Shown here: positions 1 to 40,769 of the stretch, piece after piece | How positions within the stretch are numbered: position 1 is the stretch's first letter | Layout: each line of letters begins with the position of its first letter | Origin: a virus | Length of the DNA stretch: 40,769 nt | Direction: 5' to 3' (one strand) | Virus record (IMG/VR): IMGVR_UViG_3300045988_011209 | Notes under the pieces: generated by a model | The model's database searches: none | What the model was told of the DNA's origin: nothing | Seen by the model: the letters and a program-made list of their open reading frames with translations, nothing else | Position numbers and translations under genes: made by a program

Positions 1-228
1 AAGTCCTTTTACGTGCATGGAATTAATCACATTCTGAAGGTGCTGAAAATGAATATCCGTGATAGGCATATCCGCTATGTTGGATATGTGTTTAAAAGCA
101 ATGTGATAAGACTTAACAGCGCTATCAGAAATAGACTGAGAGTGAATAGGCAGCCACTCGTTAAATAGTTGCCTTAATGTAATGGTATTGCGTTGTCTAC
201 GTTTTAGCATAACAGCGTAACGGCGCAT
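1..228 (-). CDS. N-terminal part (about 76 aa, reverse-complement start ATG at 228..226) of a small tyrosine recombinase that continues on the circle at 40690..40073; putative shufflon invertase
   Basis: Translating the reverse complement of 1..228 gives MRRYAVMLKRRQRNTITLRQLFNEWLPIHSQSISDSAVKSYHIAFKHISNIADMPITD..., which runs in frame into the ORF 40073..40759. The internal Met at 40759 corresponds to window position 69. An RBS GGAGGTG lies 7 nt upstream of the start codon. Total length is 846 nt, which is 281 aa plus stop. Confidence 0.75.
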   Translation of the reverse strand, partial: MRRYAVMLKRRQRNTITLRQLFNEWLPIHSQSISDSAVKSYHIAFKHISNIADMPITDIHFQHLQNVINSMHVKGL

Positions 229-254
229 AATTTCACCTCCGAAAGGATACTACT

Positions 255-647
255 ATGAATCAATATGTATTTGTGTTAAACGAAATGGGCGAACGAATTA
301 CGTCCTATGTTGATAATACTGTAACGCAAGAGCAGTTGTTAGCAACTGCGAAACAAGAATGGCCAGACGCAGCGGATTATATTTACTCTGCAGATGGCGA
401 CAGCATGCTTGATGAATTTATGAGCGGTAAATTCTATGTAGACGGCAAGTTTGTCGAACCTGCTCCGTATGTTCCTACAAAGGAAGATAAGATTAATGCG
501 ATTAAATCTGAATACGAGCCTCGCTTCAAATCCTTAGAAGAGGCTCAGCGCAGATTGTTATTAATGGGAAAACCTACTGGGGCCATTAGCGCACAATATA
601 TCAAATTAAATACCGAAATGGTAACACGTATTAAGGAGGTACAATAA
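255..647 (+). CDS. hypothetical protein (130 aa), first gene downstream of the tail fiber/shufflon region; possibly fiber-associated
   Basis: ORF with an RBS GAAAGGA upstream of the start. I recognise no motif. Confidence 0.5.
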   Translation: MNQYVFVLNEMGERITSYVDNTVTQEQLLATAKQEWPDAADYIYSADGDSMLDEFMSGKFYVDGKFVEPAPYVPTKEDKINAIKSEYEPRFKSLEEAQRRLLLMGKPTGAISAQYIKLNTEMVTRIKEVQ

Positions 648-648
648 T

Positions 649-813
649 ATGCCTAAATATATCGGAGAAAGTAAAGTACCTGTTATGGAATTTTGTGAGT
701 ACTGCTGGGAAGTGCTTAACGAAGACGGAACATGCCCAACAGAGGGCTGTGTCCATAATGATTTAATGGACGAGGTACACGAAGATGAAACTGCCAGTCC
801 TACACAACTTTAA
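649..813 (+). CDS. small Cys-rich (zinc-ribbon-like) protein, 54 aa, not in the supplied ORF track
   Basis: Strong RBS AAGGAGGT 8 nt before the ATG at 649. Translation is [54 protein letters not shown], which contains a CxxC...CxxxxC pattern. It overlaps the start of the 785 ORF by 29 nt. Confidence 0.35.
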   Translation: MPKYIGESKVPVMEFCEYCWEVLNEDGTCPTEGCVHNDLMDEVHEDETASPTQL

Positions 814-1123
814 TGCGATTAAAGGGGAAGTAATTTCTCTTAACATTGGTTATAACAATGTTGTTGCAAGTGAAAGTCTGTTCGCCTGTGTTCGTAAATA
901 TTCGCCGGATGAAGAATATAAAGCGAAGTTTGATATTGACGTATCTACCGACGAGCTAGAAAACGATGAGGCATCTAAAATTACCCTTTCGTTGGATACA
1001 AATGCCCTAGAAGTCGGTAAATATCAATGGGACTTATTTATTTGGAGTGGCGACCACCCTATTAAATGTCTAGTTAAAGGACAAATTAATATAGTCGAAG
1101 GCGTTAGTAATAGGGGGAAATGA
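785..1123 (+). CDS. hypothetical protein (112 aa)
   Basis: ORF translationally coupled (ATGA overlap) to the collagen-like gene. No motif recognised. Confidence 0.45.
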
Positions 1124-2370
1124 TGGACGAATTACATATTCACGACAATAATGAAACGATCAAAGTTAAGGACAATACTCAAATCGTTAAACTACAAGGA
1201 CCGAAAGGCGACCCAGGAGAGCAAGGTCCTCCTGGCCCTCCAGGCGAACCTGGTCGAAATGGTATTGACGGATTAAACGGTGAGCGAGGGCTGCAAGGGC
1301 CTCCTGGACCGCCTGGTGCTCCTGGTAAAGATGGAATTAATGGCGACCCAGGTCCTAAAGGTGAACCAGGTAAAGACGGAAAACCGTTTACTTACGATAT
1401 GTTCACACAGGAACAATTAGAGAATTTAAAAGGCCCTAGAGGTGAACAAGGTCCACCAGGACCGCCTGGTACTGGTGCTAATGTAGATTTATCAGCCTAT
1501 ACAACTAAACAAGATGCCGAAAATCTTTACCTAAAAAAAGAAGATATAAGAAACTACCTTACCACGCTAGGAGACCCCAAATATGCACTTAAAGAAGAGT
1601 TAAATAAGTATTTGTCTAACACAGATGCAGTTAATAATTACGCTCAAAAGGGTTGGGCTACTCAAACATTCGCCTATAAGAACGATTTAGGCACTTTTAT
1701 TAAGAAAAACGAGATTGCTCAATATGCATTAACACCTGGTGATGCTTCTAATCGTTACGTTAATAAACTAGAGGGGCAGTCCTTCGCTCAAAAATCTGAA
1801 TTAAGTGATTATGTTAAGAAAACGGAAATTAATCAGTATGCATCAAGTACGCAAGGGCCACCAGGGCCTAAAGGTGAACCGTTTAAATATTCTGACTTCA
1901 CGCAAGACCAACTTAATGCACTTAAAGGGCCAAAGGGTGATAAAGGCGAACCATTTAGATATTCTGATTTTACGGCAGAACAATTACTAGCGTTAAGAGG
2001 GCCTAAAGGAGAACCTGGAAGCGGTGGTGGACAAGCTACTTCGCAACCAATCGAAATATATGAAGTGGTTTGGGGAAACGCTATAGCCAGTAATCCAGGG
2101 GCTGATAGAGGTTACTTAGCATTTGACCCATTAACAGGTTGGGGGTACTTGCATTTTGATTTTAAATTGAAAACTCCTTCTGGTAATGGCAATATGGTCG
2201 CATCGCTACCACCTAATGCACCAGTTGCAGTAAGGCTAATTGAAAGAAGCGTTGATGTAAATAACAATAGTATTTATGTTGAACGAAACAGCCGTATAGT
2301 TAAGGGGTGGGGTGTGCCAGCGAACACACGTTATATTATTGATATTATAGGATATTGGAGGAAAGCATAA
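1120..2370 (+). CDS. collagen-like Gly-X-Y repeat protein with a globular C-terminal domain; putative tail fiber or fibre-like structural protein
   Basis: A long uninterrupted [19 protein letters not shown]...[12 protein letters not shown] Gly-X-Y tract with shorter G-X-Y blocks. Three copies of a roughly 24-aa module (K/E)PF(T/K/R)Y(D/S)(M/D)FTxxQLxxL(K/R)GP(K/R)G are present, the last two as a tandem 72-nt repeat at 1876..2019. A non-repetitive C-terminal region of about 140 aa follows. Confidence 0.8.
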
Positions 2371-2374
2371 AGGG

Positions 2375-2713
2375 ATGTGGACATGGCAATTCGAACTGAA
2401 TGATATATTAACCACTCTTACAATTGTAGGTGTAGTTGCAGGTGCAGGATATAGATTGTTGATTATTCCTTTGCTACAACAGTTGGACTCACAACGCGTG
2501 CAAGATAATCTTATTTTTCAAGAAAAATGGGGTGTATTAACTGACACGCTAAAAGATTTGAAAGATGAAATTAAATTATCACGTGCAGAGCGTATTAAAG
2601 CTGAAAGCAAGCAAGTATTACTATCTGCAAAGGTTGAAGCATTAGAAGTGCGTGTTGATGATATTAAGGAGGCGTTACATGAACATTCCACCAAAGCTCA
2701 TCAATACAATTAA
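2375..2713 (+). CDS. membrane protein with one N-terminal TM segment and a coiled coil; possible holin/antiholin-type lysis accessory
   Basis: Hydrophobic segment LTIVGVVAGAGYRLLIIPLL followed by a charged coiled-coil region. Sits immediately upstream of the holin and endolysin. Confidence 0.4.
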   Translation: MWTWQFELNDILTTLTIVGVVAGAGYRLLIIPLLQQLDSQRVQDNLIFQEKWGVLTDTLKDLKDEIKLSRAERIKAESKQVLLSAKVEALEVRVDDIKEALHEHSTKAHQYN

Positions 2714-3011
2714 ACAATCTTATAAATCTGTGAGGGTGGCTAACATCCACCCTACAGGTATATTCGCTACTCGGGCGCTAGTATTTATTATGCTAGTGCC
2801 TATTTTATTGGTAATAACTCAGTATGTTATGTCATTTGTTAGCGGGTACGTATCTGACGAGGCGAACAAGCTGATTAATGTAGGGCTTAATATCATAGAT
2901 CATATATTCATCCCTAGCGTATTAATGGCTGTTGTAGGATTCCTGGGACTTTGGCTAGATAAGAACAATAATGGCATTCCCGATAAATTAGAAGAGGAGG
3001 ATAAACGATGA
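2679..3011 (+). CDS. holin candidate (two TM segments, charged C-terminus)
   Basis: Start chosen at the ATG at 2679, preceded by RBS AAGGAGG; the track ORF begins at 2652. TM segments IFATRALVFIMLVPILLVI and IFIPSVLMAVVGFLGLWL are followed by a hydrophilic tail DKNNNGIPDKLEEEDKR. The stop overlaps the endolysin start (ATGA). Confidence 0.55.
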   Translation: MNIPPKLINTIKQSYKSVRVANIHPTGIFATRALVFIMLVPILLVITQYVMSFVSGYVSDEANKLINVGLNIIDHIFIPSVLMAVVGFLGLWLDKNNNGIPDKLEEEDKR

Positions 3012-3526
3012 AAGTATTTATTAATCCCGGACATGATATTAATTTAGATAGCGGGGCAGTTAACCCTGTATATGGTACACGTGAATGTGACGTGGCACGT
3101 GATGCGGGCAAAATGTTAGCTCGCTATTTGGAAACAGCAGGATGTGAAGTCCGCACTCTACAAGATGACGATTTAGGTCTAGTATGTTCTGAATCTGATT
3201 CTTGGGGCGCAGATATCTTCGTATCGCTTCATTGTAATGCATTTAACACGGAAGCTCGAGGAACTGAAACACTGTATAAGTCCTTTAATGGGCAACGCTT
3301 AGCGAACGATATTCAAAGTCAAATCATCCGCAGCATTAATACAGTTGACCGGGGCGTTAAGAAACGCGACGACCTTTGGGTACTAAATGGCACGGACGCA
3401 ACTGCAGTATTAGTTGAAATGGCATTCATTGATAACGAAGAAGATCATGCTATGCTGACTAATGATTTAGATACTATCGTTCGTGCCATTGCTAGGGGGA
3501 TTACTGACTACGCAGGAGGGATATGA
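3008..3526 (+). CDS. N-acetylmuramoyl-L-alanine amidase (Amidase_3 / CwlA-type) endolysin
   Basis: Matches the conserved Amidase_3 layout: N-terminal INPGHD/GAV, an SLHCNAF zinc-ligand region, and VLVEMAFIDNEED near the C-terminus. Confidence 0.9.
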   Translation: MKVFINPGHDINLDSGAVNPVYGTRECDVARDAGKMLARYLETAGCEVRTLQDDDLGLVCSESDSWGADIFVSLHCNAFNTEARGTETLYKSFNGQRLANDIQSQIIRSINTVDRGVKKRDDLWVLNGTDATAVLVEMAFIDNEEDHAMLTNDLDTIVRAIARGITDYAGGI

Positions 3527-4011
3527 TGTATGACAAACTCAAAGTTTTACTTAATAGCCTTAGTTACCGCCATGCTGTTATCGGTGGTATTGTGCTCCTC
3601 TCCGTCTTTTGCTGCTGGTACATCTTCCACGAGCCAAGTGGAGCCAACAATCACGATTCCCTTAACACAGTGGAACGAATTGAAAAGCAACAACGAGAAA
3701 GCCTTGAACTTAATCGAAGCATCCAACGTTCCATTGACCGAAGCTCAGACCTTAGTCATGAAGCAAAAGAACGAATTGACCGAAGCACACAATACAATAT
3801 CGACATTGGAAACAGAATTGATGAAAGCCAAAATGCTATCCATGAAGCAAGAAGTTACCTTGTCAGAAATGCAGAGCTCATTAACAGAATTGAAGGGTCA
3901 AATAGAGAACGACAAGCGAACAATCAAACGACTACGGATGCAGCGCAACCTATCTCAGATGGTGGGAGCGGGAGCAATAATTGGAGTAGTGATTCATCGG
4001 TAAAGAGGTGA
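3523..4011 (+). CDS. alternative-frame ORF fully overlapping 3530..4003; i-spanin-like layout (N-terminal TM plus periplasmic repeat-rich domain). It may be a genuine embedded gene or only a shadow ORF
   Basis: The ATG overlaps the endolysin stop (ATGA), and RBS GGAGGG sits 6 nt upstream. N-terminal TM AVIGGIVLLSVFCCWYIF. Its codon usage is atypical for this genome (many CGA and CTT codons). Confidence 0.3.
   Translation: MMYDKLKVLLNSLSYRHAVIGGIVLLSVFCCWYIFHEPSGANNHDSLNTVERIEKQQRESLELNRSIQRSIDRSSDLSHEAKERIDRSTQYNIDIGNRIDESQNAIHEARSYLVRNAELINRIEGSNRERQANNQTTTDAAQPISDGGSGSNNWSSDSSVKR
3530..4003 (+). CDS. spanin-like envelope protein (N-terminal signal peptide, central coiled coil, C-terminal TM); codon usage fits the genome
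   Basis: Signal-like N-terminus MTNSKFYLIALVTAMLLSVVLCSSPSFA, heptad-rich middle, C-terminal MVGAGAIIGVVIH. Uses TTA/TTG for Leu like the other genes in the genome. Starts 4 nt after the endolysin stop. Confidence 0.5.
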   Translation: MTNSKFYLIALVTAMLLSVVLCSSPSFAAGTSSTSQVEPTITIPLTQWNELKSNNEKALNLIEASNVPLTEAQTLVMKQKNELTEAHNTISTLETELMKAKMLSMKQEVTLSEMQSSLTELKGQIENDKRTIKRLRMQRNLSQMVGAGAIIGVVIHR

Positions 4012-4052
4012 TCCAAATATCTCCCTAGCCTTGCGAGGGTGGACGTAAGGCA

Positions 4053-4086
4053 AGCCCCAGGTAAATACTACCTGGGGCTTTTTGTG
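4053..4086 (+). terminator. rho-independent terminator after the lysis cassette
   Basis: Stem AGCCCCAGGTA / TACCTGGGGCT followed by a TTTTTGTGTTT run. Confidence 0.6.
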
Positions 4087-4110
4087 TTTGACATCATTTT
4101 GACATCAATT
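4087..4110 (+). repeat. two direct copies of TTGACATCA (TTTGACATCATTTTGACATCAATT); putative integrase arm-type binding sites on one attP arm
   Basis: The same 24-mer recurs at 4309..4332 and a third partial copy lies at 4282..4295, giving five TTGACATCA copies flanking the tRNA-fragment core. Confidence 0.5.
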
Positions 4111-4210
4111 TATTAAAAAATATATAGAAATATAGTTAAATGTGATACTATGAAATGCAGTTAAATACTGTGTTTACTGGATTTATCTATAGTGTGAAAA
4201 TTAACTCTTA

Positions 4211-4249
4211 ATCAGGGTGTCCAGGGTTCGAACCCCTGGTGGTCCACCA
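4211..4249 (+). other. 3' fragment of a tRNA gene (T-arm, acceptor 3' strand and CCA); putative attP core
   Basis: T-stem CAGGG, loop TTCGAAC, stem CCCTG, then GTGGTCC, A and CCA. No matching 5' acceptor strand or D/anticodon arms lie upstream, so this is a fragment of the kind carried by tRNA-integrating phages. Confidence 0.6.
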
Positions 4250-4252
4250 AAA

Positions 4253-4281
4253 TAAACCCGCACTACTGTGCGGGTTTTTCT
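4253..4281. terminator. bidirectional stem-loop terminator between attP and the integrase 3' end
   Basis: AACCCGCAC-TACT-GTGCGGGTT is flanked by A-runs on one side and T-runs on the other. Confidence 0.55.
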
Positions 4282-4332
4282 TTTGACATCATTTTTATCA
4301 GGGTACCCTTTGACATCATTTTGACATCAATT
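4282..4332 (+). repeat. three direct copies of TTGACATCA (second attP arm), ending at the integrase stop
   Basis: TTTGACATCATTTT at 4282..4295 and TTTGACATCATTTTGACATCAATT at 4309..4332. Confidence 0.5.
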
Positions 4333-5404
4333 AGAATATGTTTGAAATCTTTTCTACCACATCAGCTTCCATAATCGGAGTAACGTGAGAGTAGGTATCC
4401 ATCGTTTGTTGATATGAAGAATGGCCAAGCCTCATTTGTACGACTTTAAAGTTTACGCCTGCTTCTAATAATAAGGTAGCATGGGTATGGCGAGTATCGT
4501 GCATCGTAAAGTCAGGCCTACCGATTGCAGTAGCAAACTTTTTACACTTTAGAGAAACTTTAGCCGGATCACGAGGGTTTCCGAACTTACCAGGGAACAC
4601 GAGATTATTATTTCTCCAGTTCGTTGCTTTTAATCTTCGTTTATCGACGTGTGTGCGAAGTTTTAGTAGCTCTGCGATAGTTTTATCGTCGAGTGAAATA
4701 GAACGCCTAGACGAGCTATTTTTAGTTGTTTTTGAGATAGTTGTGACTTCGTCGATACGTAAAACTGTCTGATTGACGGTTAACGTCTTTTGTTTTAAGT
4801 TGACATCATCCCAGGCTAAACCGAGTATCTCGCTGCGGCGCAAACCCGTAGTAAATGCTAGCTTGAACAGGGCATGCCATTCGACATCATCAATTTGTTC
4901 GAGGAAGGTTTCAACTTCTTCTTTAGATAGCGTTACCATTTCACGTTTGCGTTCTTGTTTAGGCTTCTTAACCAGCGTGGCCACGTTCTTCGATATTATC
5001 TCATCCATGACCGCCTGTTTAAGGATAGCCCTAAGAACGGTTAGCGTATAGCCGATAGTCCTGGCTGATAAGTGGCTCATGCTATCCATTAAAGCTCTTA
5101 CATTTAATGCGGATAGCTCGACTAATCGTATCGAACCTATGAAAGGTACAATATAGGTTTTAATAATATATTGGTAAGAGGAGAGGGTATTTTGTGAAAT
5201 CGTATCCTTCTTAAGTCTGATCCAATAGTCACACCATCTCTCTATTGTAATCGTATTATCGTAGTTAGCACATTGTGCTAGTGATTCAACGTAAGCATCA
5301 CGTTCAGCAATAGCAGCTTTCTTGGTAGTACCATAAAAGTATTTACGCTTACCATTTATCATTTTAGATACTTGGTAGCGTCCATCAACTCGTTTTTTAG
5401 CCAT
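4331..5404 (-). CDS. int: tyrosine integrase (phage integrase family, 357 aa)
   Basis: Catalytic signature HDTRHTHATLL...LGHSSYQQTMDTYSHV with the conserved R, HxxR, H and Y. An N-terminal domain of about 170 aa is present. The gene is adjacent to the attP-like tRNA fragment. Confidence 0.9.
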   Translation of the reverse strand: MAKKRVDGRYQVSKMINGKRKYFYGTTKKAAIAERDAYVESLAQCANYDNTITIERWCDYWIRLKKDTISQNTLSSYQYIIKTYIVPFIGSIRLVELSALNVRALMDSMSHLSARTIGYTLTVLRAILKQAVMDEIISKNVATLVKKPKQERKREMVTLSKEEVETFLEQIDDVEWHALFKLAFTTGLRRSEILGLAWDDVNLKQKTLTVNQTVLRIDEVTTISKTTKNSSSRRSISLDDKTIAELLKLRTHVDKRRLKATNWRNNNLVFPGKFGNPRDPAKVSLKCKKFATAIGRPDFTMHDTRHTHATLLLEAGVNFKVVQMRLGHSSYQQTMDTYSHVTPIMEADVVEKISNIF

Positions 5405-5518
5405 AAAAATAACCTCCTAGGCTTAAATTTGAGTATAAGAAATAAGCCTTAGAGGTTTTATGTGATATAATAGTATTGGAGTAAAAATGAAATACCTCTA
5501 AGGTATGTAGTTTTTAGT

Positions 5519-5550
5519 GGCCCTCACTGCGGTGAGGGCTTATTTTTTTA
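5519..5550 (+). terminator. GC-rich hairpin followed by a T-run (terminator-like) between int and the downstream minus-strand gene
   Basis: GGCCCTCACTGCGGTGAGGGC followed by TTATTTTTTTA. The T-run is on the + strand, so as a terminator it would serve a + strand transcript. Confidence 0.4.
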
Positions 5551-5551
5551 T

Positions 5552-5899
5552 CTAAAATACAGAATCTAGTACGTTATCATACCAGTGCTTTTTCTTTTTA
5601 GGCTGTTGCACTTCTTCAGATGGTGCCTGGTGTATCTCATGATCGGCTTGCCATTTTGCCAGTGCGTTTTTAGTACCTTCGTCGACTTTGTGTAAGTCGT
5701 CCATTTCTTTTTGTGTCATACTAATAGTGCGTTCAAGATATTCCTGTTCGTCTAGTAATTCTGTGCTCCCGTCATCGTAATGTACTAATACTTTAGGGCC
5801 GTCTAAGGCCTTAAATTCATCGTGAGATACCTCAGTTCTAGCGAATCCTGTAACTGTAACTAAGGCGAGCATAGTAGTAATTAATAAAGTCTTTTTCAT
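5552..5899 (-). CDS. secreted hypothetical protein (signal peptide; 115 aa) within the lysogeny module
   Basis: N-terminus MKKTLLITTMLALVTVTGFA is a classic Sec signal. The mature part is acidic. Confidence 0.55.
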   Translation of the reverse strand: MKKTLLITTMLALVTVTGFARTEVSHDEFKALDGPKVLVHYDDGSTELLDEQEYLERTISMTQKEMDDLHKVDEGTKNALAKWQADHEIHQAPSEEVQQPKKKKHWYDNVLDSVF

Positions 5900-5925: not shown

Positions 5926-6201
5926 TTATAATACTGATACATAATGATGGTAGAAATCTATATTCTCCAGTTCGGTATCATCAATACATGTTCGACGGAC
6001 CATTTGCTCTACTAGATTAACGTGATGGTCTAAATAGAAGTCGTCATTAATAATATGCATTAATTCGTGCTTAATTTCTTCCCTCATACGGTCATGAGGG
6101 AGGTTTTTATTTATATAGATATTATGAGTATCTATATCTTCACATTCCTCTGATACAGCGTTGGCATGTGGTAAGTCGCAATAAATCAAATTTACAACCA
6201 A
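5926..6201 (-). CDS. ImmA/IrrE-like zinc metallopeptidase (short, 91 aa)
   Basis: HExxH motif HELMHII, and the gene sits directly downstream of an XRE-family repressor, which is the typical ImmR/ImmA arrangement. Confidence 0.55.
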   Translation of the reverse strand: MVVNLIYCDLPHANAVSEECEDIDTHNIYINKNLPHDRMREEIKHELMHIINDDFYLDHHVNLVEQMVRRTCIDDTELENIDFYHHYVSVL

Positions 6202-6222
6202 TATATCACTCTCCCTTGTGTA

Positions 6223-6600
6223 TTATTTGTTTTTTAATTTTAAAAGCTCTATATATTCGACTGCTTTTTCTAAATCCTCCTTACTTATATCTTTAGCGGC
6301 AGAGAAGAGCATACGAGCTCCTGGACGTGTGCGTAGGTATTCAGCAAATTCGGCTGCTTCACGGTCAGTGTAATAGCCGTCTGTATATTTCTCTACTAGT
6401 TCAGATTTAGGAACGCCAAAATAGTTTGCCAATAACTCAATTTTATCGATTCTAGGATACGTATTTCCCTTTACCCAATCGGTAAACGTAGTATACTTTA
6501 GCCCTAAATCAGCGCATATTTTATTGCGATCAATTCCGCGACTATCCATTAGTCGTTGAATATTCTCGGCCATAATAGCCTTGTTGCCTAAATCACTCAT
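6223..6600 (-). CDS. XRE-family HTH transcriptional repressor (CI-like)
   Basis: N-terminal HTH NKICADLGLKYTTFTDWVKGNTYP with a C-terminal extension. Transcribed divergently from the Cro-like gene across an operator-rich intergenic region. Confidence 0.8.
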   Translation of the reverse strand: MSDLGNKAIMAENIQRLMDSRGIDRNKICADLGLKYTTFTDWVKGNTYPRIDKIELLANYFGVPKSELVEKYTDGYYTDREAAEFAEYLRTRPGARMLFSAAKDISKEDLEKAVEYIELLKLKNK

Positions 6601-6642
6601 AATAACCTCTCAAACACGGAATATATTAATTAATATACCTAT

Positions 6643-6671
6643 ATATTACGACATTTTCGTAATAAAATCAA
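6643..6671 (-). promoter_or_regulatory. putative repressor-gene promoter (minus strand: -35 TTGATT, 17-bp spacer, -10 TAATAT) with operator palindrome TTACGA-CATTT-TCGTAA (6646..6662) in the spacer
   Basis: Read directly from the sequence. The inverted repeat has perfect 6-bp arms. Confidence 0.45.
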
Positions 6672-6710
6672 TATTTTACGGAAATTTTACGATAGTTTAA
6701 GTTTAGTTTA

Positions 6711-6739
6711 TGGACATTACGGATAAACCGTAGTAGAAT
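6711..6739 (+). promoter_or_regulatory. putative early rightward promoter (-35 TGGACA, 17-bp spacer, -10 TAGAAT) with operator palindrome TACGG-ATAAA-CCGTA (6718..6732) filling the spacer
   Basis: Read directly from the sequence. The downstream RBS AAAGGAGGT precedes the Cro-like gene. Confidence 0.45.
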
Positions 6740-6783
6740 GATGACTGTAAACAAGATGTGAGTATCGAGAAAGGAGGTAGCTT

Positions 6784-6972
6784 ATGAAGTATACATTAAA
6801 GATGTTAAGGGCTTCAAAAAACTGGTCTCAACTTACGGCATCTAAAGCAATTGGAGTGTCTGTTGATACTTGGGGAAATTGGGAGCGCAAACGCTCTTAC
6901 CCTGATGTTCCTCACATAAAAAAGATACAAGAAGTATTTGGTGTAACGTATGACGACATTATTTTTTTATAG
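6784..6972 (+). CDS. Cro-like small HTH regulator (XRE family, 62 aa)
   Basis: HTH WSQLTASKAIGVSVDTWGNWERKRSYP. Divergent from the repressor gene. Confidence 0.7.
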   Translation: MKYTLKMLRASKNWSQLTASKAIGVSVDTWGNWERKRSYPDVPHIKKIQEVFGVTYDDIIFL

Positions 6973-6976
6973 TTGA

Positions 6977-6992
6977 TTACGGTTAAACCGTT
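6977..6992. promoter_or_regulatory. third operator-like palindrome TTACGG-TTAAA-CCGTTA between the two rightward HTH genes
   Basis: Belongs to the same TTACGR-N5-YCGTAA family as 6646..6662 and 6717..6733. Confidence 0.4.
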
Positions 6993-7006
6993 ACGGAGGA
7001 AGGGTT

Positions 7007-7255
7007 ATGAAAGAATTCGTAATCAGAATGTTCGGCGAATCCATTACGGAACGCATGAACGAGTTAGGCATGACTAAGACGGCGCTGATCAAACAAGCTG
7101 AAATCTCGATGGATACATTAAACCGAGCTATCAAGGGCAAGTCAGTGCAAATGTCGACAGTCGTTGGTATCTGCTATGCGTTGTGTGTCGACGATACCGA
7201 AAGTCACGACTTTTGGGAAACCGATTACTACAACCCTAAGTTAGATAGGAGGTAG
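7007..7255 (+). CDS. second HTH DNA-binding regulator (82 aa)
   Basis: HTH-like MTKTALIKQAEISMDTLNRAIKGKS. Confidence 0.55.
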   Translation: MKEFVIRMFGESITERMNELGMTKTALIKQAEISMDTLNRAIKGKSVQMSTVVGICYALCVDDTESHDFWETDYYNPKLDRR

Positions 7256-7257
7256 CT

Positions 7258-7374
7258 ATGAATAAAAAACAATTATTAGAACTAGCTAGTTGTTGCTTAT
7301 GGATTTTAGCGCTCGGCTTGTCCGCAGGTATAAGTTTATTCGTGATGTTATCCCTGGTGCTTCTAGCATTCTAG
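7258..7374 (+). CDS. small hydrophobic membrane peptide (38 aa), not in the ORF track
   Basis: Strong RBS AGGAGGT 5 nt before the ATG. Translation is MNKKQLLELASCCLWILALGLSAGISLFVMLSLVLLAF. The start overlaps the upstream stop (TAGCTATG). Confidence 0.4.
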   Translation: MNKKQLLELASCCLWILALGLSAGISLFVMLSLVLLAF

Positions 7375-7377
7375 GAG

Positions 7378-7578
7378 GTGCATATGAATAAGATGTGCAT
7401 CACAGTAGCGGAAGCTGCAGAACTTGCTAGCGTACCGCAAGCCGTTATTCGAGAATGGGCGCAAGATTTTGACTTCCCGTCCATGAAAATCGGTAAGCGT
7501 GGAGGTAAACGCCTTATCCACGTTGATTCATTTAACGCTTGGCTTGCTAAACGATGCCAGGCGCGAATAGGAGAGTAG
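7378..7578 (+). CDS. excisionase-like / MerR-HTH_17-type small DNA-binding protein
   Basis: ITVAEAAELASVPQAVIREWAQ... fits the Xis/HTH_17 family. 66 aa, basic. Confidence 0.5.
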   Translation: MHMNKMCITVAEAAELASVPQAVIREWAQDFDFPSMKIGKRGGKRLIHVDSFNAWLAKRCQARIGE

Positions 7579-7580
7579 AC

Positions 7581-7760
7581 ATGATGAAAGTAGTTTATGT
7601 GCTTCGCATTATTGCAGCCATATTAGTAGTAGGAACTGTCGGTTCTATCGAAATAGACCGCATTGATTTATGGACTGGTATGTGCCAGGGGTTACTAGGT
7701 ATCACTCTTTGGTTACTCACTGGATACTGGATTGAGGAGTTAAAAGAGTATGAACGATAA
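7581..7760 (+). CDS. small two-TM membrane protein (59 aa)
   Basis: Start chosen at the ATG at 7581 with RBS AGGAGAG; the track ORF starts at 7554. Hydrophobic segments IIAAILVVGTVGS and LLGITLWLLTGYW. Confidence 0.35.
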   Translation: MMKVVYVLRIIAAILVVGTVGSIEIDRIDLWTGMCQGLLGITLWLLTGYWIEELKEYER

Positions 7761-7923
7761 ACGATGCTCATTCTGTAATAAAAGAATTAAAAGTCCTTAC
7801 ACAAATTGGTCGTACCTAACAGGTAAGCCTCGAATTGTGTGCGATAACTGTAAAGACATACACCCGTGTGTAAATAGAATAACACGTTTATCCAAACGTG
7901 CCTAGTGAAAGGAGGTGAGGACA

Positions 7924-8034
7924 TTGCGAGACTGTACAACGTGCCCTAATAGAGATTACTGCATTCCTGATGAGTGCGAGCACTTGGGCACAAAAAAAGC
8001 ACCCCAAAGCACGGCAATGCTAAAGGGCGCATAG
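7924..8034 (+). CDS. possible small Cys-rich ORF (TTG start, 36 aa)
   Basis: Strong RBS AAAGGAGGTGA 6 nt upstream of the TTG. Translation is (M)RDCTTCPNRDYCIPDECEHLGTKKAPQSTAMLKGA. Confidence 0.25.
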   Translation: MRDCTTCPNRDYCIPDECEHLGTKKAPQSTAMLKGA

Positions 8035-8086
8035 AAAAATATCCATTTAAAGTATATCACATCATTAAGCCGAAAGGGAATAGAAC

Positions 8087-8510
8087 AATGATCGAGTTAA
8101 AAATCACAGTTGATAAAGCAGTTGAATTAGAACAAGAAGTGAAAGACCTATATCAATCTATCGTAGGCGCTCCAGTTAAAGAAGAAACATCTACTAAGAA
8201 GGAAGCTCCTAAACAAGCTGAACCAGTTAAAGAAGAAGCACCTGCTCCTAAGGATGAACCTAAATCTGAACCAGAAGAAGAACCAGCAAAAGCTGAAGAA
8301 CCAGCAAAAGCTGAAGAACCTAAAGTAGAGGTTCCTAGCCTTGAAGCAACTCGTGAAGCAGTGAAAGACGTAATGGCAAAAGCCACTGATAAAACGAAAG
8401 CTAAAGGCGAATTCAAAGCCTTCTTAGATAGCATCGGTGCCGAAAAGGTAACATCTGCTACCGATGAACAACGTATTCAAATTATGGAATGGGTGAACAG
8501 CCGTGGCTAA
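8087..8510 (+). CDS. acidic Pro/Glu/Lys-rich low-complexity protein (141 aa)
   Basis: Start chosen at the ATG at 8087 with RBS AAAGGGAA; the track ORF starts at a GTG at 7974 in the same frame. Repeats PAKAEEPAKAEEPK. Confidence 0.5.
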
Positions 8511-9645
8511 GAAACACGCTTTACTAGGTGCATCAAGTAGCGCCAGGTGGCTAGTATGTACTCCTTCAGCAAGACTAGAAGCGATGTTCCCTGATGAACA
8601 ATCGCCGTATGCAGCGGAAGGCACTGTAGCTCACGACCTGGCAGAAGCAATTCTACGGCATAAGCTTGAGGGCAAAAAAGCCCCTAAGCTAGACGACTAC
8701 TCCGCTGAAATGATAGAAGCGGTTAATCGATATGTCGACATTTGCGAAGAAAAGGTAAACGAAGCTCGTGCTCGTTCCTCTGATGCGGAAGCCATGATTG
8801 AAGCACGGCTCGACTTCTCTAGGTGGGTACCTGATGGCTTTGGTACTGGTGACATGGTAATCGTAGCCGATGGCATCCTAGAAGTAATCGACCTAAAGTA
8901 TGGTAAGGGTGTTCCTGTTAGTGCCGTTGAAAACACACAAATGCGACTCTACGCATTAGGTGCTTACGATGTGAACGAGTACTTATACGACATTAAAACT
9001 GTTCGTATGACGATCGTTCAGCCAAGGCTTGATAGCGTATCTACCGACGAAATGCCTATAGCAGACCTGCTTGATTGGGGTGAAGAAATCAAACCAATCG
9101 CGCAACGTGCCTGGGAAGGTGGGGGCGAATGTACGCCTTGCGATTACTGTAACTTCTGTAAAGCACGGCACACCTGCCGAGCATTAGCAGATACTTGCCT
9201 TGATACATTCTATAAGAATGGTGGCAAGCTTAATCAATTACTTACTGACCGTGAAGTATCTGACATTCTAGCGATGAAAGATTTAATCACGAAATGGATT
9301 AAAGGTGTTTACGACTTCGCTTATGAAAAAGCATTATCGGGTGAAAAGCAATGGCCAGGATACAAATTAGTAGAAGGTACATCAAGACGTACCATAACGG
9401 ATCCGGATGCAGCAGCTAAAACATTACTCGATAACGGCTATAAGGAAGAAGACATCTTTAAGCCACGTGAACTCGAAGGTATCACAAACCTACAAAAAGT
9501 ACTCGGTAAAAAGGGCGTTGCCGAATACCTAGAAGCATATATCGAAAAACCGGAGGGCAAGCCTACGCTTGTACCGGAAAGCGATAAACGCCCAGCAATT
9601 AATACAGTTGAAACAATGATGAATGAATTTGAAGATGAGGTATAA
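8503..9645 (+). CDS. PD-(D/E)XK-type nuclease (Cas4/RecB-like fold) with a C-terminal Cys cluster; resembles the DUF2800 family of phage replication modules
   Basis: D...E.K-like stretch GTGDMVIVADGILEVIDLKYGKG, C-terminal CTPCDYCNFCKARHTC, and a position just upstream of the DUF2815-like and PolA genes. Confidence 0.6.
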   Translation: MAKKHALLGASSSARWLVCTPSARLEAMFPDEQSPYAAEGTVAHDLAEAILRHKLEGKKAPKLDDYSAEMIEAVNRYVDICEEKVNEARARSSDAEAMIEARLDFSRWVPDGFGTGDMVIVADGILEVIDLKYGKGVPVSAVENTQMRLYALGAYDVNEYLYDIKTVRMTIVQPRLDSVSTDEMPIADLLDWGEEIKPIAQRAWEGGGECTPCDYCNFCKARHTCRALADTCLDTFYKNGGKLNQLLTDREVSDILAMKDLITKWIKGVYDFAYEKALSGEKQWPGYKLVEGTSRRTITDPDAAAKTLLDNGYKEEDIFKPRELEGITNLQKVLGKKGVAEYLEAYIEKPEGKPTLVPESDKRPAINTVETMMNEFEDEV

Positions 9646-38671: not shown

Positions 38672-38680
38672 GGAGAACAC

Positions 38681-39586
38681 ATGGCTTCTATTTATCCAAA
38701 TACACGATTAACCAATTATGGCCGTGAGTTAATCGCAAGATCGCAAGCAACTGGTAAGAAGTTGCAGTATATTAAATTAGTTACTGGAGACGGCCAACTC
38801 GATAATCAAAATATCGATACTATGACCTCCGTACTAGCTCCAAAATTGGAGTGCCCGTTTACCTCTAACGGTGAATTCGTAGGTGACGGGCAATTCAGAA
38901 TTGAATTTGCCGTTGGCAATAGCACAGTAAATAGCGGGTTCTTCGCTAGGGAATTGGGTGTATACGCTAATCTCGAGGGTGAGTCCGATTCCGCTGCCAA
39001 ACTAATTGCATATAGTAATGGTGGCAACTATGCATCCTATATTCCGTCCAAGGAGACCCCAATCAATTCTAAAGTGTTCTCTTTAGATGTTGTAATTGGC
39101 AATTCCACAAATGTAACCGTTAAGAAGATTGATGCGGCGTATCTGACTAGAGGTGCATTAGAGGCCCATAGCCGTGACACCAGTGCGCACGCTCCTATCA
39201 CAGACCAAATTAAAGCAATCCTCGGTAGTGCTAACTGGAAAGACTCTCCGGCGAGTACACTTGTTACAATTAAAAACTTACTGGGTCAAGGTGCTATCGT
39301 GGCATCTAAGCTCGATGCTAATGCGGGCTTTGTTAAATTTGCTAATGGTTTCACTATCCAGTGGGGAATTGGTGGCCAAGATAATGTTGTAAAAACAGAA
39401 GTAACGTTCCCTATTAGATTTACAAGATTATTCATGGCTAATGCTATTGACGCATATTGGAGTGGTTCTGATACACCTAGATATTTTGCAAACTCTGTAA
39501 GCGAAAGCAACAATACAAAAGCTGTATTTGTGGCGAGTGATAGATATGCCGCATCCTATTACTGGTTCGCACTAGGAATTATCTAA
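38681..39586 (+). CDS. tail fiber protein: constant N-terminal part (to 39357), in-frame recombination core encoding QWG (39358..39366), and variable C-terminal tip Cv1 (39367..39586)
   Basis: RBS AAGGAGAACAC. The C-terminal 73 aa after QWG are homologous to two inverted cassettes downstream. Confidence 0.7.
   Translation: MASIYPNTRLTNYGRELIARSQATGKKLQYIKLVTGDGQLDNQNIDTMTSVLAPKLECPFTSNGEFVGDGQFRIEFAVGNSTVNSGFFARELGVYANLEGESDSAAKLIAYSNGGNYASYIPSKETPINSKVFSLDVVIGNSTNVTVKKIDAAYLTRGALEAHSRDTSAHAPITDQIKAILGSANWKDSPASTLVTIKNLLGQGAIVASKLDANAGFVKFANGFTIQWGIGGQDNVVKTEVTFPIRFTRLFMANAIDAYWSGSDTPRYFANSVSESNNTKAVFVASDRYAASYYWFALGII
39358..39366 (+). repeat. recombination core site A, CCAGTGGGG, in + orientation inside the tail fiber gene (codons CAG TGG GGA = QWG)
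   Basis: An identical 9-mer occurs twice downstream in inverted orientation, at 39809..39817 and 40060..40068, in the same codon phase. Confidence 0.6.
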
Positions 39587-39817
39587 TTCCCTACCGCGAT
39601 ATATCTGCCCCAAGCACTAGTTTTATTTAATCCATCTCTTGCCGCCTGAGAATATACTTTAACCCCTGTTCTAGTATGCTCTCTAAATGAATGGACCTGG
39701 TTATCAGTATTGTTACCATTCACATCATTACCAACTGCCGCGAAGCAAGTAGTATCAAAGGAAACAGGAAATGAAATCGTACCTCCTATTGGTACGTTAT
39801 TAAACGCTCCCCACTGG
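39583..39817 (-). CDS. silent alternative tail-fiber C-terminal cassette Cv2 (QWG plus 75 aa), inverted and promoterless
   Basis: Minus-strand translation ...YLQWGAFNNVPIGGTISFPVSFDTTCFAAVGNDVNGNNTDNQVHSFREHTRTGVKVYSQAARDGLNKTSAWGRYIAVGN*. It is homologous to Cv1 (TFPIRFT/SFPVSFDT, FMANAID/FAAVGNDV, YYWFALG/RYIAVG). It begins at core site B. Confidence 0.6.
39809..39817 (-). repeat. recombination core site B (CCAGTGGGG on the minus strand), heading cassette Cv2
   Basis: + strand reads CCCCACTGG. Minus-strand codons are CAG TGG GGA. Confidence 0.6.
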
Positions 39818-39827
39818 AGATAGGTAA

Positions 39828-40068
39828 TTAGCTGAGTCCAACGCACAGCCAGGTAAAGTTACCGGCATTCCCTCGGTTAGTTAAAAAACGTATAGAAGTT
39901 CTATTATTATTTGAGAAGCCACTGTTCCAAGAAACATAGAACTCCTCGCCTCTTGTAGATATGCTCGCTGAGTCGTCGGTACATATTGCGACTAAAACAT
40001 TACACCTGATAGGCAATGTTACATCACAATATGTATTTTGATTTAAGAACCAAGTTAGCCCCCACTGG
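39828..40068 (-). CDS. silent alternative tail-fiber C-terminal cassette Cv3 (QWG plus 77 aa), inverted and promoterless
   Basis: Minus-strand translation from site C: QWGLTWFLNQNTYCDVTLPIRCNVLVAICTDDSASISTRGEEFYVSWNSGFSNNNRTSIRFLTNRGNAGNFTWLCVGLS*. It is open in frame from the core site with no ATG start of its own; the track ORF starts at a TTG. It is homologous to Cv1. Confidence 0.55.
40060..40068 (-). repeat. recombination core site C (CCAGTGGGG on the minus strand; part of an 11-bp palindrome CCCCA-C-TGGGG), 4 nt from the recombinase stop codon
   Basis: + strand reads CCCCACTGG, identical to site B. Minus-strand codons CAG TGG GGG are in phase with Cv3. Confidence 0.6.
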
Positions 40069-40072
40069 GGAG

Positions 40073-40769
40073 TTACTTTAATAATTCTATCGTTTTACGT
40101 AATTCACGAATGGTTTTGTGCGTATACACCCTGGTAGTGATATCGCCTTGTTTATGGCCTAGTAAGGAACGTAATGCGTTAGGTGGCGCAACCGCATCAA
40201 GTAAACTGGCGAATGTGTGCCTGGTATCGTGGATAGTATGCTTACAGTTAAGCTGCTTCATAATATCCTGGAAATGCTTACGGAATGATGTGTAACTGAT
40301 AGTGAATAGGTATTCGCTAGTATGTAGTTGCTCTATTATAGGCATGATGCGGTGATGAATGGGAATAATACGACCTTCACTGGCTTTTGTTTTAGCGTGC
40401 CTCACAATAAGGTAGGATGATCGTCTATTGATATCTTGCCCGCGCAAATTAAGTACCTCACCTATGCGGAGCCCAGTGTAAAGCAGTATTAAAATCATGC
40501 GAGAGTAAGGAGTATCTATTACCCATAACTTGTTGATTTGTTGGCGAGTGAATACTCTCCTTTTTATCGTTGGTATGTTGGGTCCTAGATTTAGATGCTG
40601 GGCGTAATTAGTAATAGGATAATCCTTGATGATTGCGTAATTAAATAATTGATTAAGTAACGTGCGGACTTTCTTACAAGATGAGTAGGTAAGTCCTTTT
40701 ACGTGCATGGAATTAATCACATTCTGAAGGTGCTGAAAATGAATATCCGTGATAGGCATATCCGCTATG
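40073..40769 (-). CDS. small tyrosine recombinase (C-terminal part within the window; the gene continues at 228..1 across the circular junction); putative Rci-like shufflon invertase
   Basis: Catalytic signature R in TGLRIGE, HDTRHTFASLL, LGHKQ, and TTRVYTH (Tyr). There is no N-terminal arm-binding domain. Bases 40691..40769 duplicate 1..79. Confidence 0.85.
   Translation of the reverse strand, partial: IADMPITDIHFQHLQNVINSMHVKGLTYSSCKKVRTLLNQLFNYAIIKDYPITNYAQHLNLGPNIPTIKRRVFTRQQINKLWVIDTPYSRMILILLYTGLRIGEVLNLRGQDINRRSSYLIVRHAKTKASEGRIIPIHHRIMPIIEQLHTSEYLFTISYTSFRKHFQDIMKQLNCKHTIHDTRHTFASLLDAVAPPNALRSLLGHKQGDITTRVYTHKTIRELRKTIELLK
40691..40769. repeat. 79-bp exact duplicate of window positions 1..79 (assembly overlap of a circular or circularly permuted genome)
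   Basis: The base-by-base identity was checked. The duplication lies inside a single ORF split across the window ends. Confidence 0.85.

What the first reader, a model, noticed from the sequence alone, without database searches (positions are those of the whole stretch)
1..228. Recombinase gene split across the window ends; 79-bp terminal duplication implies a circular contig
Positions 40691..40769 are identical to 1..79. The reverse-complement ORF ending at 40073 continues without interruption into the reverse complement of 1..228, with an ATG at 228..226 and an RBS GGAGGTG. The joined gene is 846 nt.

The window is therefore a circular or circularly permuted phage genome opened inside a gene. 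The element ends are not att sites. Any annotation that treats the window as linear will truncate this recombinase, which is the probable driver of the fiber shufflon.
Basis: seen in the sequence. Interest (0 to 1): 0.55.

Follow-up and report, generated by a model that had tools for sequence, protein, structure and literature searches.

The report
Split invertase gene, circular phage contig
The two ends of this contig overlap by 79 bases because the assembler opened a circular Veillonella phage genome inside a gene. Once rejoined, that gene encodes a small tyrosine recombinase that most likely flips alternative tail-fibre tips, a known kind of host-range switch.

Summary
Window 1-79 equals 40691-40769 exactly. 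Trimming one copy gives a 40,690-bp circle. On it the minus-strand ORF (228->1, then 40690->40073) is one 846-nt, 281-aa gene with GGAGGTG five bases upstream of its ATG.

Two other assemblies are 100% identical across the junction. They carry one copy of the 79-mer and an intact 281-aa gene call. So do 88 related loci, including Veillonella prophages.

The overlap is a de Bruijn-graph artefact, not a genome terminus. A co-occurring strain variant differs from the window for the last time at position 40690, the base just before the 79-mer.

attP and the canonical 357-aa integrase lie at about 4.2-5.4 kb.

The split gene is a second tyrosine recombinase that lacks the integrase's N-terminal (arm-binding-type) region. 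It ends 4 nt from the last of three CCAGTGGGG sites. These sites bound two silent tail-fibre C-terminal cassettes.

Relatives carry the same cassettes in different orders and orientations, with breakpoints at the sites. Relatives that lack the recombinase lack inverted cassettes and let the site drift synonymously.

This is a shufflon of the Rin/Rci type: a new member of a known kind. Catalysis by this enzyme is inferred, not shown.

The parts
1..79 (.). Terminal overlap, copy 1 (part of the recombinase gene, residues 50-76)
   Evidence: Identical to 40691-40769. Single copy in L092, L095 and L096.
40691..40769 (.). Terminal overlap, copy 2. This is the redundant assembler copy, to be trimmed. 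True circle = 40,690 bp.
   Evidence: The last variant SNP of a co-occurring strain is at 40690, just before this block.
1..228 (-). 5' part of the recombinase gene (codons 1-76); ATG at 228..226
   Evidence: Gene calls of 281 aa in L092, L095 and L096.
40073..40690 (-). 3' part of the recombinase gene (codons 77-281 plus TAA at 40075..40073). Carries catalytic R151, H230, R233, H255 and Y265.
   Evidence: Pfam PF00589 at 1.3e-18. Alignment to XerA 4a8e. Residue positions.
234..240 (-). Ribosome-binding site GGAGGTG, 5 nt upstream of the ATG
40060..40068 (-). Crossover site 3 (CCAGTGGGG), 4 nt after the recombinase stop codon; start of silent cassette 2
   Evidence: The first site follows the recombinase stop in most related loci.
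39828..40059 (-). Silent tail-fibre C-terminal cassette 2 (79 aa from QWG, family 1)
   Evidence: Found fused to the fibre N-terminus in other contigs.
39809..39817 (-). Crossover site 2 (CCAGTGGGG)
39583..39808 (-). Silent tail-fibre C-terminal cassette 1 (77 aa from QWG, family 2; Gp53-like_C)
   Evidence: Pfam PF21882 at 9.6e-10
39358..39366 (+). Crossover site 1 (CCAGTGGGG) inside the expressed tail-fibre gene, at codons I-Q-W-G
   Evidence: Inversion breakpoints in L031 and others abut this 9-mer.
38681..39586 (+). Expressed tail-fibre gene: constant N-terminal part 38681-39352 plus variable C-terminal tip (family 0)
   Evidence: Pfam Gp53-like_C and Phage_tail_fib; PHROG tail fibre
4331..5404 (-). 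Canonical 357-aa tyrosine integrase, the phage's real integration enzyme
   Evidence: Pfam PF00589 at 5.9e-28. 21% identical to the 281-aa recombinase, with about 50 extra N-terminal residues.
4200..4282 (+). Probable attP core: 3' part of a tRNA (T-arm, acceptor strand, CCA at 4222-4250) plus a hairpin
   Evidence: Read from the sequence. Related contigs begin here. ARAGORN and Rfam find no complete tRNA.
255..647 (+). Divergent neighbour gene (130 aa, unknown function). In recombinase-less relatives it lies 23-33 nt after the fibre stop codon.

Best explanation
The window is a complete, roughly 40.7-kb genome of a temperate, contractile-tail-type Veillonella phage. It assembled as a cycle in a de Bruijn graph.

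The assembler emitted the cycle starting and ending on the same 79-mer node. So the last 79 bases repeat the first 79, and one copy must be trimmed. The node is the point where a co-occurring strain variant merges with this genotype, which is why the cut fell there, inside a gene.

The cut gene is a 281-aa tyrosine recombinase of the armless, Xer-like layout. It is separate from the phage's 357-aa integrase, which sits next to attP 4 kb away.

The recombinase belongs to a 1.33-kb accessory module, 39587..40690 plus 1..254. The module lies between the tail-fibre gene and the next tail gene, and also holds two promoterless, inverted fibre C-terminal cassettes.

Each cassette, and the expressed fibre tip, begins at a short asymmetric site with consensus ACT[A/C][C/T]CCAGTGGGGA, in frame at codons Q-W-G.

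Inferred mechanism: the recombinase pairs the fibre-gene site with an inverted site and inverts the DNA between them. This fuses a different 74-81-aa receptor-binding tip to the constant fibre shaft. Successive inversions shuffle the cassette order and so vary host range.
For: Shown:
- Exact 79-bp overlap and an 846-nt joined ORF.
- Two other assemblies are 100% identical through the junction, with one copy of the 79-mer and a 281-aa gene call.
- The gene is intact and the junction contiguous in 80 IMG/VR loci and 8 Veillonella genome loci, including the V. parvula UTDB1-3 chromosome.
- The last SNP against MEGAHIT contig k127_76323, from the same run, is at 40690.
- There is a second integrase with an ImmA/HTH lysogeny module and a tRNA-fragment attP at 4.2-6.6 kb. 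Related contigs of 40.2-40.8 kb start there.
- Catalytic R, H-x-x-R, H and Y are present.
- CCAGTGGGG occurs 3 times in the window against 0.08 expected, and in each related locus listed it occurs only in the stretch between the recombinase and the fibre gene.
- There are seven cassette families. Identical cassette sets occur in different permutations: 1>2>0< in 9 loci, 1>0>2< in 6, 2>0<1< in 1; the {0,3,5} set shows 5 orders. Breakpoints abut the 9-mers.
- Among fibre-anchored loci, 29 of 29 with the recombinase have inverted sites and 0 of 17 without it do. The exact 9-mer is kept in 28 of 29 against 5 of 18, although IQWG is conserved in all.
- Recombinase-less relatives go straight from the fibre stop to the orf255 homologue.
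- Contig ends pile up at the sites.

Inferred: that this enzyme catalyses the inversions, and that the tips change host range.
Against: - No reads were available. Neither circular coverage nor within-sample inversion of this exact genotype was observed directly.
- The two confirming assemblies may come from the same sample as the window, so they are independent computations, not independent biology.
- A second variant in that sample means some assembled stretches could be strain consensus.
- The loci behind the co-occurrence statistics are related, so the Fisher p-values overstate independence.
- Part of the 9-mer's conservation is explained by the Q-W-G codons.
- Contig breaks at the sites could also come from co-existing strains with different fixed cassettes.
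- The assembler and its k were not verifiable.
Confidence: 0.85

Rival explanations
1. The 79-bp repeat is a real physical direct terminal repeat of a linear virion genome, as in T7-like or cos/DTR phages. The window ends would then be true genome termini.
For: Exact direct terminal repeats are what such genomes show.
Against: - The repeat lies inside a conserved ORF that is uninterrupted in all 88 related loci, including chromosomal prophages.
- It is single-copy in 100%-identical contigs.
- The break coincides to the base with a strain-variant branch point.
- The large terminase is Terminase_3 with an SPP1-type portal. These families are usually linked to headful packaging; that link is established knowledge, not tested here.
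- Related contigs open at other positions.
Confidence: 0.02
2. The circular closure is a mis-join. Two related phages in the sample share the 79-mer, and the contig joins parts of different genomes, or two distinct loci.
For: In the same run, MEGAHIT contig k127_76323 pairs window 1-5647 (100% identity) with a recombinase 3' part only 85% identical to the window's. So at least two variants share this node.
Against: - The Logan contig and ENA scaffold_890 reproduce the window's own join at 100% over 8.0 kb on one side and 3.7 kb on the other.
- Gene order across the join is the same in all relatives.
- The unit length of 40,690 bp matches related contigs of 40.2-40.8 kb that start at the att site.
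- Even a chimeric join would not change the gene structure.
Confidence: 0.05
3. The 281-aa protein is a second integrase or a Xer-type dimer resolvase of the phage. The cassette rearrangements would be made by another enzyme (the 357-aa integrase or a host recombinase) or by homologous recombination.
For: Its nearest database relatives are annotated as integrases of Fusobacterium, Cetobacterium and Butyrivibrio elements, at 26-36% identity. NCBIfam gives only sub-threshold Xer matches. Catalysis was not tested.
Against: - It lacks the roughly 50 N-terminal residues of the resident integrase and is not next to attP.
- Its stop codon is 4 nt from a crossover site.
- It is present if and only if inverted cassettes are present: 29 of 29 against 0 of 17.
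- Recombinase and cassettes form one indel.
- Nucleotide-level conservation of the site is relaxed when it is absent.
- A 9-15-bp identity is too short for efficient RecA-dependent inversion (established knowledge).
Confidence: 0.08

Closest known systems
Rin shufflon of Bifidobacterium (and Eggerthella lenta) prophages (Mavrich et al. 2018, PMC6109161; PMC8778435)
   Same: - Phage-encoded tyrosine recombinase without an arm-binding domain, distinct from the prophage's canonical integrase.
- It flanks an array of promoterless receptor-binding-protein C-terminal cassettes.
- Short asymmetric crossover sites (11 bp in Rin) lie at the start of each cassette and inside the expressed gene.
- Variants among related prophages differ by inversions at those sites.
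   Different: - Host phylum and phage type differ: Actinobacteria siphoviruses against a Veillonella phage with baseplate-J, Mu gp48 and sheath-initiator genes.
- The tip fold family differs: TP901-1/1358-like RBP against Gp53-like_C.
- The site sequence differs: TTCCCTAACCC against ACTMYCCAGTGGGGA.
- Sequence relationship between the two recombinases was not tested here.
R64/IncI1 plasmid shufflon (Rci recombinase, sfx sites, PilV tips)
   Same: A tyrosine recombinase encoded next to a multiple-inversion array. The array swaps C-terminal segments of an adhesin-type protein at short asymmetric sites. Only the C-terminal tip varies while the N-terminal part is constant.
   Different: - It is a conjugative-pilus adhesin on a plasmid, not a phage fibre.
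- tblastn of the 281-aa protein against 72,556 plasmids listed no Escherichia or Salmonella (IncI1-host) record among 79 matching records, so there is no close sequence relationship.
- From memory, Rci is larger and sfx is a 19-bp site. The site here is different.
Gin/Cin/Pin/Min tail-fibre inversion systems of Mu, P1, e14 and p15B
   Same: Same biological logic: site-specific inversion swaps the tail-fibre C-terminus to switch host range. Min of p15B is likewise multi-cassette.
   Different: Those enzymes are serine recombinases that need an enhancer and Fis (established knowledge). Here the only domains found are Phage_integrase and SAM-like.
BV01-like Phocaeicola phage tail-fibre shufflon (preprint PMC13596623)
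   Same: A multi-cassette shufflon overlapping the distal end of a tail-fibre gene. It is flanked by a recombinase and has directional 10-bp motifs. Configurations vary between samples.
   Different: Different host, site (TGGGAGAACT) and cassette organisation. The recombinase family was not compared.
Assembler terminal overlap ('DTR') of circular contigs from de Bruijn-graph assemblers
   Same: An exact direct repeat at both contig ends, of odd k-mer length. The sequence is single-copy in other assemblies. The break lies at a graph branch node.
   Different: Nothing differs. From memory, 79 is one of MEGAHIT's default k values. The assembler used for this contig could not be checked.

Membership tests
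Tyrosine recombinase superfamily (Pfam PF00589) | Catalytic-domain match above the curated threshold | tested here: met
   PF00589 scores 67.8 bits against a cutoff of 27.1, E 1.3e-18, residues 137-269. The SAM-like N-domain PF14659 scores 28.1 against 22.6.
Tyrosine recombinase superfamily (Pfam PF00589) | Catalytic R...H-x-x-R...H/W...Y residues | tested here: met
   R151, H230, R233, H255 and Y265 align with the corresponding XerA (4a8e) motifs. The beta-hairpin lysine (K176/K178) is plausible but was not assigned unambiguously.
Canonical phage integrase (lambda-Int type) | [quoted passage not shown] | tested here: not met
   The protein is 281 aa. It aligns to the resident 357-aa integrase from that protein's residue 50 onward. 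Related annotated integrases are 340-360 aa and align from query residue 9-17.
Canonical phage integrase (lambda-Int type) | Gene adjacent to attP, or to the prophage end | tested here: not met
   The tRNA-fragment attP at 4200-4282 adjoins the other integrase. Related contigs end there, not at the 281-aa gene.
Shufflon / multiple DNA inversion system | Three or more short crossover sites, at least one inverted relative to the expressed gene, over-represented and confined to the locus | tested here: met
   3 sites against 0.08 expected. In each related locus listed, the 9-mer occurs only between the recombinase and the fibre gene.
Shufflon / multiple DNA inversion system | Promoterless alternative C-terminal cassettes that would be in frame after inversion | tested here: met
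   All three begin C|CAG|TGG|GG in the same frame and run 74-79 aa to a stop. Cassette 1 hits Gp53-like_C.
Shufflon / multiple DNA inversion system | Related genomes differ by inversions or permutations with breakpoints at the sites | tested here: met
   The same cassette sets appear in several orders and orientations. Six of the seven families are seen in the expressed position. Breakpoints abut the 9-mers.
Shufflon / multiple DNA inversion system | Dedicated recombinase encoded next to the array and co-inherited with it | tested here: met
   The stop codon is 4 nt from site 3. Co-occurrence is 29/29 against 0/17. Recombinase and cassettes form a single indel.
Shufflon / multiple DNA inversion system | Inversion observed within one population and dependent on the recombinase | not testable with these tools
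   No reads and no genetics. The only indirect signal is the pile-up of contig ends right after the 9-mer.
Rci (IncI1 shufflon recombinase) family | Detectable sequence similarity to Rci | tested here: not met
   tblastn against 72,556 plasmids at E<=1e-3 matched 79 records. Their listed organisms are Bacillus, Enterococcus, Clostridium and others, with none from Escherichia or Salmonella.
Rin (bifidophage RBP invertase) family | Sequence similarity to Rin; 11-bp rix site TTCCCTAACCC | not tested
   No Rin sequence was available in the tools used. The site sequence here clearly differs from the published rix (PMC6109161). The architecture is the same.
Serine invertases (Gin/Cin/Hin/Min) | Resolvase/invertase catalytic domain | tested here: not met
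   Only tyrosine-recombinase domains were found.
Assembler circular-contig overlap | The repeat is single-copy in independent assemblies of identical sequence | tested here: met
   L092/L095 and L096 are 100% identical, and window 40690 is followed directly by window 1.
Assembler circular-contig overlap | Overlap length equals the assembler's k | not testable with these tools
   The assembler is unknown. 79 is odd, and the break sits exactly at a variant branch node, as expected for a k-mer node.

The most novel reading that the evidence does not exclude
Many Veillonella temperate phages of the human gut and mouth carry a mobile 1.3-kb 'plug-in' module. It consists of an armless tyrosine invertase plus silent fibre-tip cassettes, and it converts a fixed tail fibre into a shufflon. 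The module draws on a population-wide pool of at least seven receptor-binding tips and uses an unusually short (about 15-bp) asymmetric site embedded in the Q-W-G codons. It would have arisen independently of Rin (Actinobacteria phages) and Rci (IncI plasmids), probably from an integrase lineage shared with Fusobacteria phages.
Probability: 0.6. Interest if true: 0.45.

Novelty: new member of a known kind. Interest (0 to 1): 0.3.

Why it matters
Practical: the contig should be trimmed to 40,690 bp and treated as circular. Otherwise the recombinase is annotated as a truncated fragment, and the shufflon appears to lack its enzyme.

Biological: tyrosine-recombinase tail-fibre shufflons have so far been described for Bifidobacterium and Eggerthella prophages, and the recombinase-flanked BV01-like shufflon (recombinase family not stated in the passages read) for Phocaeicola phages. 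This extends them to Veillonella, an abundant oral and gut genus with few characterised phages.

It also offers a natural comparison set. Relatives with a highly similar fibre N-terminal domain (94-99% amino-acid identity) exist with and without the module. That makes the link between the recombinase, the site and cassette shuffling directly testable. The seven tip families are candidate host-range determinants.

Tried and rejected
- The exact truncated product of the linear contig is not on record.
- An exact 51-mer from the window has no match in IMG/VR, so the window's own contig is not in that collection.
- DNA search of the 4.7-kb region against 50,697 phage records found only short 70-72% matches in baseplate genes of Brevibacillus phages. 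There is no annotated close relative.
- ARAGORN found no complete tRNA in the window or in five genome loci. Rfam on 4100-4330 gave only sub-threshold hits driven by the hairpin. The tRNA-fragment reading of attP therefore rests on reading the T-arm, acceptor strand and CCA by eye, and on related contigs ending there.
- Promoter and terminator scans around the recombinase and the shufflon did not exceed shuffled controls. How the recombinase is transcribed stays open: its ATG is only 26 bp from the divergent orf255 ATG.
- NCBIfam gave no family-level assignment, only sub-threshold Xer matches.
- Considered and rejected: a true virion DTR, a second integrase or Xer resolvase, and a serine invertase (see the rival explanations and membership test).
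- The viral and genome collections already answered the questions.

Full report
**1. The observation**

The first 79 bases of the window are identical to the last 79. 79 is the longest such overlap, and the 79-mer occurs nowhere else. The chance expectation is about 1e-43.

Removing one copy gives a 40,690-bp circle. On its minus strand, 228->1 followed by 40690->40073 is one ORF of 846 nt, ATG to TAA, encoding 281 aa. GGAGGTG lies five bases upstream of the ATG.

The contig break falls after codon 76. Pfam's N-terminal SAM-like and central-domain matches (residues 17-109) run straight across it. The catalytic-domain match (137-269) follows it.

Read as linear, the window shows only a 228-aa fragment.

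**2. Is the junction real?**

I could not map reads, but I found the equivalent in other assemblies.

- Looking up the neighbouring 130-aa protein and the tail-fibre protein by exact sequence returned two contigs: a Logan contig of run ERR414488 (26,012 bp) and an ENA scaffold, LIJU14-1_SAMEA2338858 scaffold_890 (36,751 bp).
- Both are 100% identical to window 32681-40690, continuing directly into window 1-3696 and 1-272 respectively. Each has a single copy of the 79-mer and a called 281-aa gene.
- 80 IMG/VR loci, out of 130 hits, carry the full-length recombinase at 89-97% amino-acid identity. Eight Veillonella genome loci, including the complete V. parvula UTDB1-3 chromosome, carry it at 66-91%. 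In the IMG/VR loci the 200-bp junction segment aligns contiguously at 91-98%. In the genome loci window 40689 and window 1 are adjacent.

**3. Why the cut is there**

A third assembly of the same run is MEGAHIT contig k127_76323 (41,350 bp). It is 100% identical to window 1-5647 but only 85% identical to window 40122-40689.

The last difference is T against A at window 40690, the base immediately before the 79-mer. So the window starts exactly where two co-occurring phage variants merge in the assembly graph.

A cycle that passes through such a branch node is written out starting and ending on that node. This produces an overlap of one k-mer. The 79-bp duplication is therefore an assembler artefact, and its position is set by strain heterogeneity, not by phage biology.

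From memory, 79 is among MEGAHIT's default k values. I could not check which assembler made this contig.

**4. Circular form and att site**

- The window holds a full temperate-phage gene set: integrase, ImmA-type protease and HTH repressor; a replication module; Terminase_3 large terminase and SPP1-type portal; baseplate and tail genes; an amidase.
- Between the lysis genes and a 357-aa integrase (4331-5404, minus strand) lies a sequence that reads as the 3' part of a tRNA. It has T-stem CAGGG/CCCTG, loop TTCGAAC, a 7-nt acceptor strand, a discriminator base and CCA, at 4222-4250. A hairpin follows.
- ARAGORN and Rfam find no complete tRNA there, as expected for an attP fragment.
- Several related contigs of 40.2-40.8 kb begin at this site. 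Others have lysis-attP-integrase contiguous, as in the window. Upstream contig ends cluster about 4.05-4.08 kb from the recombinase start, which corresponds to window position about 4282.

So the window ends are not att sites, the window is in the excised (attP) configuration, and its unit length matches those related contigs that start at the att site.

Whether virion DNA is circularly permuted (headful packaging, as the terminase and portal families suggest) was not tested.

**5. What the split gene is**

The 281-aa protein is a tyrosine recombinase with R151, H230-x-x-R233, H255 and Y265.

It is only 21% identical to the resident integrase and lacks that protein's first 50 or so residues. 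Its layout is therefore the armless, Xer-like one.

Its best database relatives, at 26-36% identity, are longer proteins annotated as integrases in Fusobacterium, Cetobacterium and Butyrivibrio elements. In the phage records inspected they lie in ordinary lysogeny-module positions. NCBIfam gives only sub-threshold Xer matches.

No Escherichia or Salmonella (IncI1-host) record appears among the 79 plasmid records matched. It is not a close relative of Rci.

**6. The shufflon next to it**

The arrangement in the window is as follows.

- The tail-fibre gene (38681-39586, plus strand) has a Gp53-like C-terminal domain.
- Downstream, on the minus strand, are two promoterless cassettes at 39583-39808 and 39828-40059. 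Then comes the recombinase, whose stop codon is 4 nt from the last site.
- The expressed tip and both cassettes start at CCAGTGGGG, all in the frame C|CAG|TGG|GG (Q-W-G).
- The 9-mer occurs three times in the window against 0.08 expected. In each related locus listed it occurs only in the stretch between the recombinase and the fibre gene.
- Across 147 distinct site contexts the conserved block is ACT[A/C][C/T]CCAGTGGGGA, with an invariant T at -3. The flanks are not conserved.

Cassettes fall into seven families of 74-81 aa. The same cassette sets occur in different orders and orientations.

| Cassette set | Arrangements seen |
|---|---|
| {1,2,0} | 1>2>0< in nine loci including the window; 1>0>2< in six; 2>0<1< in one |
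| {4,2,0} | two arrangements |
| {0,3,5} | five arrangements |

Six families are seen in the expressed position. The inverted blocks are bounded exactly by the 9-mers; for example L031 against the window.

**7. Linking the recombinase to the shuffling**

I anchored a second search on the constant fibre N-terminus. It gave a natural comparison set of relatives with and without the recombinase.

- Among loci with at least 2 kb downstream of the fibre N-terminus, all 29 with the recombinase have at least one inverted site. None of the 17 without it does.
- The recombinase-less relatives run from the fibre stop codon to the orf255 homologue in 23-33 nt. The silent cassettes plus recombinase are thus one 1.33-kb accessory indel, window 39587..40690 plus 1..254.
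- In recombinase-less fibres the I-Q-W-G peptide is fully conserved but the codons drift (CAA, ATT). The exact 9-mer is kept in 5 of 18, against 28 of 29 recombinase-bearing loci. This is nucleotide-level constraint that depends on the recombinase being present.
- Contig ends pile up at the sites. 24 of 36 downstream ends lie within 1 kb of the recombinase stop, against 3 of 57 upstream ends within 1 kb of its start. 20 of 79 fibre-anchored loci end within 100 nt of the fibre N-terminus, many 13-15 nt after it, right behind the 9-mer. This is what mixed orientations within samples would produce.

Caveats: the loci are related, so the p-values overstate independence. Co-existing fixed strains could also break assemblies at these points.

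**8. Mechanism**

Shown:
- the architecture;
- the in-frame sites;
- the permutations among relatives;
- the co-inheritance of recombinase and cassettes.

Inferred, by analogy with Rci/sfx and Rin/rix:
- the 281-aa enzyme synapses the site in the fibre gene with an inverted site, exchanges strands within the conserved core, and inverts the intervening DNA, fusing a new tip to the constant shaft;
- repeated events permute the array;
- the tips alter receptor specificity.

It remains open how an armless enzyme avoids deletion between directly repeated sites. It is also open how the recombinase is transcribed: it is antisense within the late tail operon, 26 bp from a divergent ATG, and the promoter scans were uninformative.

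**9. Comparison with what is known**

- The closest described system is the Rin shufflon of Bifidobacterium prophages. It was reported as the first phage-encoded tyrosine-family invertase (PMC6109161) and was later seen in Eggerthella lenta prophages (PMC8778435).
- A recombinase-flanked, multi-cassette tail-fibre shufflon is reported for BV01-like Phocaeicola phages (PMC13596623).
- A systematic survey found tail-fibre genes enriched among programmed inversions (PMC9881135).
- Full-text searches found no paper describing this in Veillonella.

So this is a new member of a known kind, in a new host lineage, with a different site and tip fold. The terminal overlap itself is an ordinary assembly feature.

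**10. Verdict**

Interest is modest. The split gene and the 79-bp repeat are artefacts of linearising a circle. The underlying tyrosine-invertase fibre shufflon is real-looking, widespread in Veillonella phages and well suited to experiment, but it is not a new principle.

Noticed in passing
window 9649-11187 (+): A 512-aa YadA-like trimeric autotransporter adhesin (head repeats, stalk and membrane anchor) is encoded inside the replication module, between a DUF2800 nuclease and an Enc34-type ssDNA-binding protein. It is a candidate lysogenic-conversion adhesin in a Veillonella phage.
   Followed up: no
window 4086-4110, 4281-4296, 4308-4330: Repeated TTTGACATCA(TTTTGACATCAAT) motifs flank the tRNA-like attP core on both sides. 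A 46-nt stretch containing them is the only part of the attP region conserved in many relatives that have other integrase modules. They may be integrase arm-type binding sites.
   Followed up: partly
L093 (ENA ERR414488 k127_76323) against window 40122-40690: The same sequencing run holds a second phage variant. Its recombinase 3' part is 85% identical to the window's, while the adjacent 5.6 kb is 100% identical. This is either a recent recombinant or an assembly chimera between co-resident phages.
   Followed up: partly
L019 (IMGVR_UViG_3300007123_000146), locus 6001-9553: A fold-back contig: recombinase and cassettes, followed by their mirror image with a second, 86%-identical recombinase on the opposite strand. 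This is probably an assembly artefact at the invertible region.
   Followed up: no
window 229-254: Only 26 bp separate the recombinase ATG (228, minus strand) from the divergent orf255 ATG (255, plus strand). The recombinase and silent cassettes lie antisense in the middle of the late tail operon, between the fibre gene and a collagen-repeat tail fibre at 1120-2370. The recombinase's promoter is unidentified.
   Followed up: partly
window 39583-39586: The stop codons of the expressed fibre tip (TAA, 39584-39586) and of silent cassette 1 (TAG on the minus strand, 39585-39583) overlap tail to tail. The invertible block therefore has no spacer between convergent coding ends.
   Followed up: no
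L113 and L041 (IMGVR_UViG_3300045988_012882, 40,691 bp): A related contig of almost the same length appears to be opened at the junction between the fibre N-terminus and the shufflon. One end lies 62 nt inside the fibre N-terminal segment and the other 15 nt past it. Circular relatives seem to be cut at different graph branch points.
   Followed up: no
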